Shown here in pieces: positions 4,170 to 22,437 of a stretch of 64,000 bases of DNA. The notes under the pieces are model-generated. The model was not told the DNA's origin. It ran no database searches and worked only from the letters and a program-made list of their open reading frames with translations. Source of the DNA: Octopus vulgaris (lineage: Eukaryota); the NCBI GenBank assembly GCA_951406725.2, contig OX597815.1, positions 188,728,001 through 188,792,000 on the forward strand, in the 5' to 3' direction. A program made the translations under genes and the position numbers. How positions within the stretch are numbered: position 1 is the first letter of the stretch; every line of letters begins with the position of its first letter.

Positions 4170-4400
4170 TGTGTGATGCACCAATTCTTCATACTTTCCT
4201 GTTCCATATTCAGTCCCGAAAACCAGACGCACACTTCTGTATGCCCCACAGCAGTTAATGAAAATCAGATTCTTCTACACATTGGCCAGGGTTTCCTTTT
4301 TGACTGTTCTCTTGAGAATTTGCTTAAAATGTTTTCATTTTCTGAGAGAAGCAGAATGTTACTTGTTTCCATCTTCTTTCTCCAACAAAATCTTCTTATA

Positions 4401-4757
4401 GGCGCAGGAGTGGCTGTGTGGTAAGTAGCTTGTTTACCAACCACATGGTCCCGGGTTCAGTCCCACTGCGTGGCACCTTGGGCAAGTGTCTTCTATTATA
4501 GCCTCGGGCTGACCAAAACCTTGTGAGTGGATTTGGTAGATGGAAACTGAAAGAAGCCCATCGTATATATGTATATATGCGTGTGTGTTTGTGTGTCTGT
4601 GTTTGTCCCCCTAGCTTTGCTTGACAACCGATGCTGGTGTGTTTATGTCCCCGTTACTTAGCGGTTCAGCAAAATCGAGTTGCTCGATTAAAGGTGGTGC
4701 TCCCGCATGGCCGCAGTCAAATGACTGAAACAAGTAAGAGAGTAAAGAGTAAAGAGT
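4401..4757 (+). mobile_element. SINE family A (tRNA-derived)
   Basis: Head ggcgcaggagtggctgtgtggtaag..gggttcagtccc (A/B-box like), central (TA)n(TG)n, tail gactgaaacaag(taaaagag)n; over 20 copies in window. Confidence 0.9.
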
Positions 4758-19822: not shown

Positions 19823-19833
19823 ATATATGGATT

Positions 19834-20358
19834 GTCAGTAGATCATATATCCAAAAACGAAATGCACTCTAAACATTAGAATAGTAGCATATACTAAGTT
19901 AATTATCTGGCCAGTCATAGAGTGACTAATGGTTTTGCATCAAGAAAGTGCTTAGGCCTTATAGATGGTTCGTTGGAATCTAATGGCTGCAGGAATATAA
20001 CCTCTTTTCAAATTGAAGGTTTGTCGAATAACCAAAGTTGTATAGCACTGTATTATCTGAGAGACACTGGCTTTCATGATTATGTAGATGCATGCAGCCA
20101 GAGGTACAGCTATCAAATACAAACAAGGTGGTGGTCTTTTGTAAAACACCCTGTGTCTAGGACTCGTAATGGATAGTCAGTAGATCATATATCCGTAAAA
20201 GAAGATTGCTCTAAATGGTTGAGCAGTAATGTATTTCGAAGTTAATTATATGGCTGGTCATAGAGTGACCAATTGTTTTGCATCTATAAAATGCTTGGCC
20301 TTACAGATGGATCATTGGACTTTAATAGCTTTCGGCATATAACCTCTTTTCCAGTTTG
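19834..20358. repeat. Diverged tandem repeat, period 342 bp (~1.5 copies)
   Basis: gtcagtagatcatatatcc at 19834 and 20176, with colinear similarity to ataacctctttt. Confidence 0.85.
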
Positions 20359-20708: not shown

Positions 20709-20762
<54 letters not shown>

Positions 20763-20861
20763 CACATATATGTATGTATGTGTGTGTGTGTGTGTATAAT
20801 TAAGTTTGAAAATGGAGAGATACAATGGATACAAATTAATTTATTAATTGATTATCATCTT

Positions 20862-20963
20862 CACCTACAATTGTTTCATTTCACATCCAATTTATACTAC
20901 AAAGCATATATAAATATATGATTTTGCATTTCAAAATACCTTGGGTGGAATATCATCAGGGTA
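20862..20963 (-). ncRNA. Type I hammerhead motif with long stem II domain
   Basis: Minus strand tacc CTGATGA [75 nt] GAAAC aatt GTA ggtg. Confidence 0.7.
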
Positions 20964-21049
20964 TGCAAAAGGACAATACAAGGATTACATTATGAGTCTA
21001 TTGGAGTATTTCAACCGATCATAATGTAATCCTTGTATTGTCCTTTTCA

Positions 21050-21151
21050 CACTCTGATGATTTTCCACCCAAAGAATTTTGAAATGTAAGATTATATCTT
21101 TATATATGTTTTGTAGTCTAAACTGGATGTGAATTGAAACAATTGTAGGTG
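21050..21151 (+). ncRNA. Type I hammerhead motif with long stem II domain
   Basis: cact CTGATGA [75 nt] GAAAC aatt GTA ggtg; palindromic ACAATTGT stem III. Confidence 0.7.
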
Positions 21152-21353
21152 ACGATGATAATTAATTTATGAATTAATTTGTATCCATTGGATCTCTCCG
21201 TTTTCAAACTTAATAATAATATTTTATATTTTATATTTTATATTTTATATAATATATTAATTGAAGAAATATCTCTTCAAAATACAATATATTAAACCAG
21301 TATATATTGGCTAAAAATAGCCCTATAAGAGGCCTAAATATCCTCATAGTGGC

Positions 21354-21385
<32 letters not shown>

Positions 21386-21390
21386 CCCCA

Positions 21391-21595
21391 GGGGTATATG
21401 GCGTAGTGGTTAAGAGCGCAGGCTACTAACCCCAAGATTTTGAGTTCGATTCCATGCAGTGACCTGAATAATGAAAATAATAATTTCAGAAAAATACCTT
21501 AGGAATGAGAACCCAGGTTTGAAATTCTCCCAGGACACCTGATGTCTTAATAACAAACAAGATGAGGACAAATATCTGTCAAATGTAAATAATGT
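21391..21595 (+). mobile_element. tRNA-headed SINE-like element (family D)
   Basis: A box tggcgtagtgg and B box gagttcgattcc, but anticodon and acceptor arms do not pair. Confidence 0.6.
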
Positions 21596-21986: not shown

Positions 21987-22437
21987 AATATATATATATA
22001 TATATATATATATAACACTCCTCTCACAACCTGGGACCTTGAAGACTGCTTTAATGCAAGAAAGTATACGAGTCCCTTAATATTTGATGTTCAATATTTC
22101 ATCTATTCAATAGGACAATCAGTACTTCATTTCATTTTACTATATATACTTTTTATACTATATATTCTATATTCTACGTTAATATTATAAAGAATATAAA
22201 TAAAACATAAGAAACAGAGTTGGAATTCCTTTGAATAATAAATATCCCTCTATATACAATCATACATACAAACCCCTGAGGATAATTAAACCTCTTATAG
22301 GGATATTTATCCAAGATATACTGGTTTACTGGTTTAATATATTAAATTTTGAATATATTATATTGAATACAGTAGGATATCAAACATTTTTACCTAGTTA
22401 GAAAACAGAGAAATCTAATATATACAAATTAAATTAT

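What the first reader, a model, noticed from the sequence alone, without database searches (positions are those of the whole stretch)
20797..21217. Palindrome carrying two core-intact long-stem-II hammerheads
The arms have diverged at many positions, yet both retain CUGAUGA and GAAACAAUUGUA-GGUG exactly, and stem I differs while still pairing (UACC vs CACU opposite GGUG). Seventy-five nt separate the core halves. The palindromic ACAAUUGU stem III suits either monomer or dimer folding.
Basis: partly seen in the sequence, partly recalled or inferred. Interest (0 to 1): 0.7.

Follow-up and report, generated by a model that had tools for sequence, protein, structure and literature searches.

The report
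Long-armed hammerheads in Penelope retrotransposon ends
This DNA palindrome is two head-to-head tail ends of a common jumping gene, a known insertion layout; each end carries a likely self-cutting RNA motif whose second arm is about three times longer than in published relatives, but cutting is untested and these two copies are likely decaying leftovers.

Summary
20795-21218 is an inverted repeat; each arm has CUGAUGA, a 75-nt spacer and GAAACAAUUGUA-GGUG, on opposite strands. The arms are 5'-truncated 3' ends of a dispersed Penelope-like retroelement (PLE). In 8 of 17 endonuclease-anchored loci the same unit lies downstream of an RT/GIY-YIG ORF with Hydra-clade motifs. Head-to-head stubs with a one-sided tail are the known PLE insertion pattern. 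Across subfamilies stems I and II covary and the spacer folds as a long rod (218 exact long-spacer motifs, 0 controls), so the hammerhead was likely selected in the source elements. At this locus the intact cores are not significant (P about 0.29); the right arm's stem II folds no better than shuffles, and a read-through RNA would bury the ribozyme in a 200-bp hairpin. The two cores cannot dimerise in cis. Cleavage is untested, and copy 5' ends do not pile up at the cut site. The scan noted similar cases before, in this genome and others. New variant of a known kind.

The parts
20797..20995 (-). Left arm: 5'-truncated 3' end of the PLE family ('family A'), ending at the short 3' end (no tail)
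20862..20963 (-). Left type I hammerhead motif: stem I UACC (20963-20960), CUGAUGA (20959-20953), 75-nt stem II (20952-20878), GAAACAAUUGUA (20877-20866), GGUG (20865-20862); predicted cut after 20866
   Evidence: stem II -12.3 kcal/mol, z -1.1
20993..21018 (+). Asymmetric centre: extra 5' sequence of the right arm matching the family's upstream sequence; the arms overlap by 2-3 nt at about 20993-20995 (read from the sequence)
20993..21217 (+). Right arm: 5'-truncated 3' end of the same family
21050..21151 (+). Right type I hammerhead motif: stem I CACU (21050-21053), CUGAUGA (21054-21060), 75-nt stem II (21061-21135) opening with a U.U juxtaposition, GAAACAAUUGUA (21136-21147), GGUG (21148-21151); predicted cut after 21147
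   Evidence: stem II -7.3 kcal/mol, z +0.4
21218..21355 (+). One-sided 3' tail of about 140 nt, shared with other copies; in L165 the same tail runs into the start of the ORF
20712..20796 (.). (TA)n/(TG)n microsatellite at the left end, likely the insertion target
   Evidence: (TA)n preference of Hydra PLEs
21355..21385 (.). (TA)n microsatellite at the right end; no target-site duplication can be resolved

Best explanation
The palindrome is two head-to-head, 5'-truncated 3' ends of a Penelope-like retrotransposon family with Hydra-clade motifs, likely written in one insertion event, and each end carries the element's type I hammerhead motif with an unusually long stem II that likely self-cleaved in active source elements but is likely decaying neutrally here. 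Inferred mechanism: the GIY-YIG endonuclease cut both strands of a TA-rich microsatellite, and the RT primed from each end on the element RNA at two 3' start sites, giving one short end (20797) and one tailed end (21355). Both cDNAs stopped early (about 200 and 360 nt) and were joined through a 2-3 nt overlap. About 5% change per arm since then explains the 10% arm difference. In source elements the hammerhead likely trimmed tandem or read-through transcripts, weakly, and likely needed a partner copy (palindromic ACAAUUGU) or the element protein. The long stem II is a short basal stem plus an apical hairpin module of about 40 nt.
For: Shown: a dispersed family (780 first-look candidates, 40 scored, 51 matches; 137 exact 21-nt flank matches, 0 control). 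The unit lies in sense downstream of an RT/GIY-YIG ORF in 8 of 17 endonuclease-anchored loci, inverted upstream in 3 of 17, and in direct orientation upstream with its tail leading into the ORF start in L165. ORF motifs SDKT, GGLYRDD, CxCX5C and a C-terminal VY..YIG are present and match the Hydra description. In about 11 other head-to-head loci with both ends visible one arm has the tail and the other lacks it, and none has two full tails, as described for PLEs. The two arms share uncommon variants (21158 A in 4 of 33 copies, 21130 T in 8 of 33). The spacer folds as a rod in the clan: mean z -1.9, 49 of 69 below -1. For the named structure on 45 copies, 88% of cells pair vs 80% shuffled, with 72 two-sided changes vs 25 (0 of 500 shuffles), and slid controls give 26-43%. 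RNAalifold on 20 closer copies recovers stem II. The U.U junction is in 53 of 69 copies and 14 of 26 published Hydra rows; U10.1-U11.1 is reported as tolerated. Relatives with a 34-nt spacer keep the same basal stem without the apical module.
Against: No cleavage data. Copy 5' ends do not cluster at the predicted cut: 3 of 87 lie within 4 nt, about what an even spread gives. RNAalifold on all 45 copies predicted no pairs. The counted structure was derived from these sequences, the 45 were picked for intact cores, and related copies are not independent. The hammerhead fold lies 7.1 (right) and 4.2 (left) kcal/mol above each arm's minimum-energy fold. Rfam gave no match at gathering score. Hydra membership rests on motifs, not on a tree; 9 of 17 ORF-anchored loci showed no downstream unit within the fetched 10 kb. 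The two-end priming step is inferred from published in vitro work on another clade; self-priming on an antisense RNA is a published alternative.
Confidence: 0.82

Rival explanations
1. The palindrome arose by fold-back self-priming or template switching during reverse transcription of one PLE strand rather than by priming at both cut ends. Same element, different route.
For: Arkhipova et al. 2013 (PMC3846280, passages) interpret head-to-head PLE palindromes as self-priming on an antisense template. The junction here is tight, with a 23-nt asymmetric centre.
Against: The consistent one-tail/one-short-end pattern fits two 3' start sites on sense RNA, as shown in vitro for an Anolis PLE that cleaves and extends both strands. 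Junction positions differ between loci.
Confidence: 0.2
2. The unit is a short non-autonomous derivative (retrozyme- or SINE-like, about 350-400 nt) copied in trans by the PLE enzyme, rather than truncation products of the full element.
For: Many flank-anchored copies begin 170-215 nt upstream of the anchor. Animal retrozymes are described as PLE derivatives (bioRxiv 10.64898/2026.07.22.740005).
Against: 5' ends are spread over the whole unit. Longer copies continue into an AT-rich 3' UTR and the ORF. No tandem monomer arrays were seen in the fetched loci. The apparent cluster lies next to TA-rich sequence and the edge of the reference.
Confidence: 0.12
3. The host keeps this locus as a functional bidirectional ribozyme pair or RNA switch.
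For: Both cores and both stem III palindromes are intact.
Against: Both cores intact has chance probability about 0.3. The right stem II is decayed (z +0.4). A read-through RNA traps the ribozyme in a -259 kcal/mol hairpin. The surroundings are repeats and microsatellites.
Confidence: 0.04
4. It is a MITE whose terminal inverted repeats happen to contain hammerhead-like words.
For: About 420 bp, non-coding, long inverted arms, TA-rich flanks.
Against: Most copies are single arms, and junctions vary between palindromic loci. The unit is the 3' end of an RT-encoding element, and the stems covary.
Confidence: 0.02

Closest known systems
Hydra clade of C-terminal EN+ Penelope-like elements and their hammerheads (Craig et al. 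2021, PMC8557442; passages, section 11, supplement part 2 and supplement searches read)
   Same: DKT and CxCX5C motifs, C-terminal GIY-YIG, (TA)n targets, type I hammerhead near the 3' end, CUGAUGA-U...U-GAAAC junction (14 of 26 rows), short palindromic stem III, inverted 5'-truncated copies (Penelope-13_HM is listed with a hammerhead on both strands).
   Different: Core-to-core spacer 64-87 nt (75 here) against 12-26 nt in the listed Hydra hammerheads; tail about 140 nt rather than 30-40; long AT-rich 3' UTR. Two 12-nt motifs from this arm were not found in that supplement (line breaks could hide them), and the listed Hydra-1_oBim hammerhead is a different sequence.
Minimal/variant type I hammerheads of metazoan PLEs (Cervera and De la Pena 2014, PMC4209133; parts 1-2 of 4 read)
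   Same: Short stem I, enlarged stem II, palindromic stem III suited to dimers, mostly solo motifs from truncated PLEs, and pairs 100-700 bp apart on opposite strands.
   Different: Their stem II is 6-8 bp with a G10.1-C11.1 pair; here it is a rod of about 25-30 bp opening with U.U (or A.G in some subfamilies).
Inverted pLTR insertions with one-sided tail in Adineta vaga Penelope (Arkhipova et al. 2013, PMC3846280; passages read)
   Same: Head-to-head inverted pLTRs, tail on one end only, overlap or microhomology at the junction.
   Different: No ORF between the arms here, no resolvable target-site duplication, and a longer tail.
Animal non-LTR retrozymes (bioRxiv 10.64898/2026.07.22.740005, part 1 of 5 read; PMC7229834, search listing only)
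   Same: Non-coding, type I hammerhead, PLE-related.
   Different: Retrozymes are head-to-tail tandems; this is head-to-head and continuous with a PLE 3' UTR.

Membership tests
Type I hammerhead ribozyme | Core CUGANGA, GAAA, U16.1 and H17 | tested here: met
   Both arms
Type I hammerhead ribozyme | Three helices around the core, stem I open | tested here: met
   Constrained fold feasible; covariation in stems I and II across 45 copies; recovered by RNAalifold on 20 copies but not on 45
Type I hammerhead ribozyme | Paired 10.1-11.1 (usually G-C) | tested here: not met
   U.U in both arms and in 53 of 69 copies; a known tolerated variant and common in Hydra PLEs
Type I hammerhead ribozyme | Match to an Rfam hammerhead model | tested here: not met
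   0 matches at gathering score in the window; the long spacer is a likely reason (inference)
Type I hammerhead ribozyme | Site-specific self-cleavage | not testable with these tools
   Indirect test negative: no pile-up of copy 5' ends at the cut site, 3 of 87
EN+ Penelope-like element | Single ORF with RT and GIY-YIG endonuclease linked to the repeat | tested here: met
   Unit in sense downstream of the ORF in 8 of 17 loci; RT and EN motifs in broken ORFs
EN+ Penelope-like element | pLTR in direct or inverted orientation, 5' truncation, one-sided tail | tested here: met
Hydra clade | DKT in place of DKG | tested here: met
   SDKTGNLY in L108
Hydra clade | CxCX5C linker and C-terminal EN | tested here: met
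   CDCRIKENC followed by the VY..YIG region in L161
Hydra clade | N-terminal RWK motif | tested here: inconclusive
   R-X-K with a break at the middle residue in L165; intact RWK in the sister family ORF L102
Hydra clade | (TA)n insertion preference | tested here: met
   Window flanks and many copies; not counted formally
Hydra clade | Generally short (<3 kb) elements | tested here: not met
   ORF region of about 2.9 kb plus a 3' UTR of at least 1.8 kb in L108; later insertions blur the length
Hydra clade | Placement in an RT phylogeny | not tested
   Published Hydra proteins were only compared by eye
Non-LTR retrozyme | Head-to-tail tandem monomers each with a hammerhead | tested here: not met
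MITE | Copies of uniform length with both terminal inverted repeats | tested here: not met

The most novel reading that the evidence does not exclude
A whole clan of Hydra-type PLEs in this genome carries active hammerheads whose loop II has been expanded into a selected, modular 40-50 nt hairpin that serves as a docking handle for the element's RT or replaces the loop I-II tertiary contact. Such motifs fall outside published descriptors (7-17 nt core spacer; 35-50 nt 'half-core' cases), so PLEs scored as lacking hammerheads, such as Naiads, may often carry long-armed ones.
Probability: 0.3. Interest if true: 0.55.

Novelty: new variant of a known kind. Interest (0 to 1): 0.3.

Why it matters
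The locus itself is an ordinary PLE insertion scar. The useful part is the family. It gives a natural series of short (34 nt) and long (60-87 nt) stem II hammerheads with the same core and stem III, with compensatory changes, and makes it testable whether the extra hairpin aids cleavage or recruits the RT, which bears on the open question of what PLE hammerheads are for. It also warns that descriptor-based surveys likely undercount hammerheads in invertebrate PLEs.

Tried and rejected
Rfam scan of the window: no match. Walking upstream from L006 returned only microsatellite matches. Naiad identity was considered because of the 'HHR_half_core' notes and rejected: the linked ORF has a C-terminal EN and Hydra motifs. 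Pfam gave only RVT_1 at E 0.0045, below cut-off, for 1 of 3 ORF pieces. The protein search for longer homologues of the EN piece found none, which is weak evidence. RNAalifold on 45 copies gave no structure. No 5'-end pile-up at the cut site in 87 flank-anchored copies, which were 87 of 137 matches. Cofolding two right arms gave no stem III dimer fold as the minimum-energy state. Sequencing runs: no RNA holder listed; contigs laid at 85% likeness were other family copies and say nothing on expression of this locus. No tRNA gene in the window. Literature searches listed no paper on long-stem-II PLE hammerheads, and 'long stem II' did not occur in the 15 papers listed. The library lacks most subscription papers, and the supplements of PMC4209133 and of the bioRxiv preprint were not seen, so absence from print is not established. 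Lunse et al. 2017 on dimeric PLE hammerheads is recalled, not read.

Full report
Observation. The window is G000:C2:188728001-188792000 of a 2.8 Gb, microsatellite-rich animal genome. The inverted repeat is real: arms 20795-20969 and 21044-21218, 88% complementary, extending inward to about 20995 and 21018 with one gap. Each arm has CUGAUGA, exactly 75 nt, then GAAACAAUUGUA-GGUG, one on each strand. Stem I is CACU/GGUG on the right and UACC/GGUG on the left. Rfam finds nothing at gathering score. The arms differ at 19 of 192 positions, so an untouched 12-nt core is expected with P about 0.29. The locus alone therefore shows no selection.

What it is. The arm is a dispersed repeat: 780 first-look candidates, 40 scored, 51 matches at 78-95% identity apart from the query itself, and 137 exact matches to a 21-nt stretch of its 3' flank with 0 controls. 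Most copies are single and 5'-truncated; many have an inverted partner with a different junction. Walking upstream led to an AT-rich 3' UTR and to broken ORFs. I took 17 of the best endonuclease matches (150 scored) with about 10 kb of DNA each. The hammerhead unit lay downstream on the same strand in 8 of 17 (L162, 164, 165, 167, 168, 169, 174, 176), inverted upstream in 3 (L160, 164, 176), and upstream in direct orientation in L165, where its tail runs into the ORF start. The ORFs show SDKT, GGLYRDD, CDCRIKENC and a C-terminal VY..YIG, the features given for the Hydra clade of Penelope-like elements. No tree was built, RWK is broken in the one family A copy that covers it, and the element is longer than typical Hydra PLEs.

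The palindrome. PLE insertions often carry an inverted 5'-truncated copy and a tail at one end only, and opposite-strand hammerhead pairs 100-700 bp apart were reported in Schistosoma PLEs. Here the right arm continues about 140 nt (21218-21355) into sequence shared with other copies, while the left arm stops at the common short end. Family 3' ends are bimodal: 35 of 87 reach the tail end, 45 stop early and 7 lie between. In about 11 other head-to-head loci with both ends visible, one arm is tailed and the other is not. Both flanks are TA/TG microsatellites. The arms share uncommon variants, consistent with one template. I infer one insertion with priming at both cut ends from two 3' start sites, as shown in vitro for an Anolis PLE. 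Fold-back self-priming remains possible.

The hammerhead across the family. The pattern CTGAWGA-N62-90-GAAACAATTGTAGG has 218 exact matches and 0 controls; the same pattern with an 8-38 nt spacer has 17. In 69 distinct core-intact copies from the fetched loci, spacers are 64-87 nt and fold as long rods: mean z -1.9 against dinucleotide shuffles, 49 of 69 below -1 and 29 below -2. On 45 of these 69, chosen for diversity, the named structure has 88.3% of cells paired against 80.3% shuffled, 72 two-sided changes against 25, and 26-43% pairing when slid. The basal stem II occurs as U-A, A-U and C-G at the same pair, and the outer stem I pairs as U-A, C-G, G-C and A-U. Cautions: the structure was read from these sequences, copies are related, the two pair-level measures were weaker (33 and 30 of 500 shuffles), and RNAalifold found no structure on all 45, though it recovered stem II on 20 closer copies. 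The stem opens with U.U in 53 of 69, as in 14 of 26 published Hydra rows, a tolerated variant. Several copies on different contigs have a 34-nt spacer with the same basal stem and no apical hairpin, so the long form is a modular extension; which came first is not known. A sister Hydra family ends in a 60-nt-spacer hammerhead with the same stem III.

In 33 copies the core mismatch rate was 3.5% against 7.9% outside it (p 0.026; base-matched 0.018). In 105 copies from searches not built on core patterns it was 5.0% against 11.4% (p 0.013); the BLAST-found copies still include the core in the query. The gap comes from variants shared by subfamilies: 50 of 171 non-core columns against 1 of 12 core columns, that one being the permitted A/U at H17. 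Rare changes are similar (3.9% vs 5.2%), and 40 of 68 core-spanning copies are intact, as neutral decay predicts. So selection likely acted on source elements, not on inserted copies.

Activity at this locus. The right stem II folds no better than shuffles (z +0.4) and the left only slightly better (z -1.1). The hammerhead fold is 7.1 and 4.2 kcal/mol above each arm's best fold, each strand carries one core only, and a read-through RNA forms a hairpin of about 200 bp with no predicted hammerhead pairing. Copy 5' ends do not cluster at the cut site (3 of 87), in line with the report that cleavage is dispensable for insertion in vitro, protein-assisted, and not visible in RNA-seq ends for the Anolis element. 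Metazoan PLE hammerheads cleave poorly and mainly as dimers. No expression evidence was obtained.

Earlier scan notes describe a similar palindrome with long stem II in this genome and long-stem-II or Hydra hammerheads in others; they are unchecked AI notes. I had recorded the same reading before opening them, and took from them only the pointer to PMC3846280.

Verdict. A known PLE insertion layout and a known ribozyme class. The long, covarying, modular stem II in a large clan is a modest variant that I did not find in the papers searched. Interest 0.3.

Noticed in passing
window 21391-21590 (+): A very abundant repeat with a tRNA-like head (A/B-box-like, recalled pattern; ARAGORN calls no tRNA). 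Other copies carry a compact hammerhead (CUGAUGA, short stem, GAAAC); in this copy about 30 nt of it are deleted after CCTGATG at about 21540. It looks like a SINE bearing a PLE-type hammerhead (L134, L175, L191, L221).
   Followed up: partly
window 22277-22432 (-): A third, more decayed fragment (about 70%) of the same family's 3' end and tail, without the hammerhead.
   Followed up: partly
window 19827-20356: Two diverged copies of a unit of about 342 nt in direct orientation (75-86% in blocks), non-microsatellite; identity unknown.
   Followed up: no
L102:2273-6500 and L110-L129: A younger Hydra-type family (739 candidates; the 20 best copies 85-100% identical to the query) with a near-complete ORF and a 3' hammerhead whose 60-nt stem II appears branched into two hairpins; in L102 a family A unit lies inverted directly before it.
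   Followed up: partly
L109, L162, L163, L166, L170, L171, L172: Further unrelated hammerhead-like motifs with long spacers (matches of 73-115 nt) turned up in randomly flanking DNA, suggesting long stem II is common across several repeat families in this genome.
   Followed up: no
window 21155-21355: Several small predicted hairpins follow the hammerhead and fill the tail; the short 3' end falls between them, so they may mark RT start sites. Not tested for conservation.
   Followed up: no
L102:3960-4800; L108:3260-3560 and 4280-4420: Long asparagine-rich low-complexity stretches between RT and EN, like the N-rich inserts described in Adineta Penelope ORFs.
   Followed up: no
G000:C29:20844344-20857481: Four closely spaced same-strand copies of a short-spacer hammerhead variant, possibly a tandem array.
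   Followed up: no
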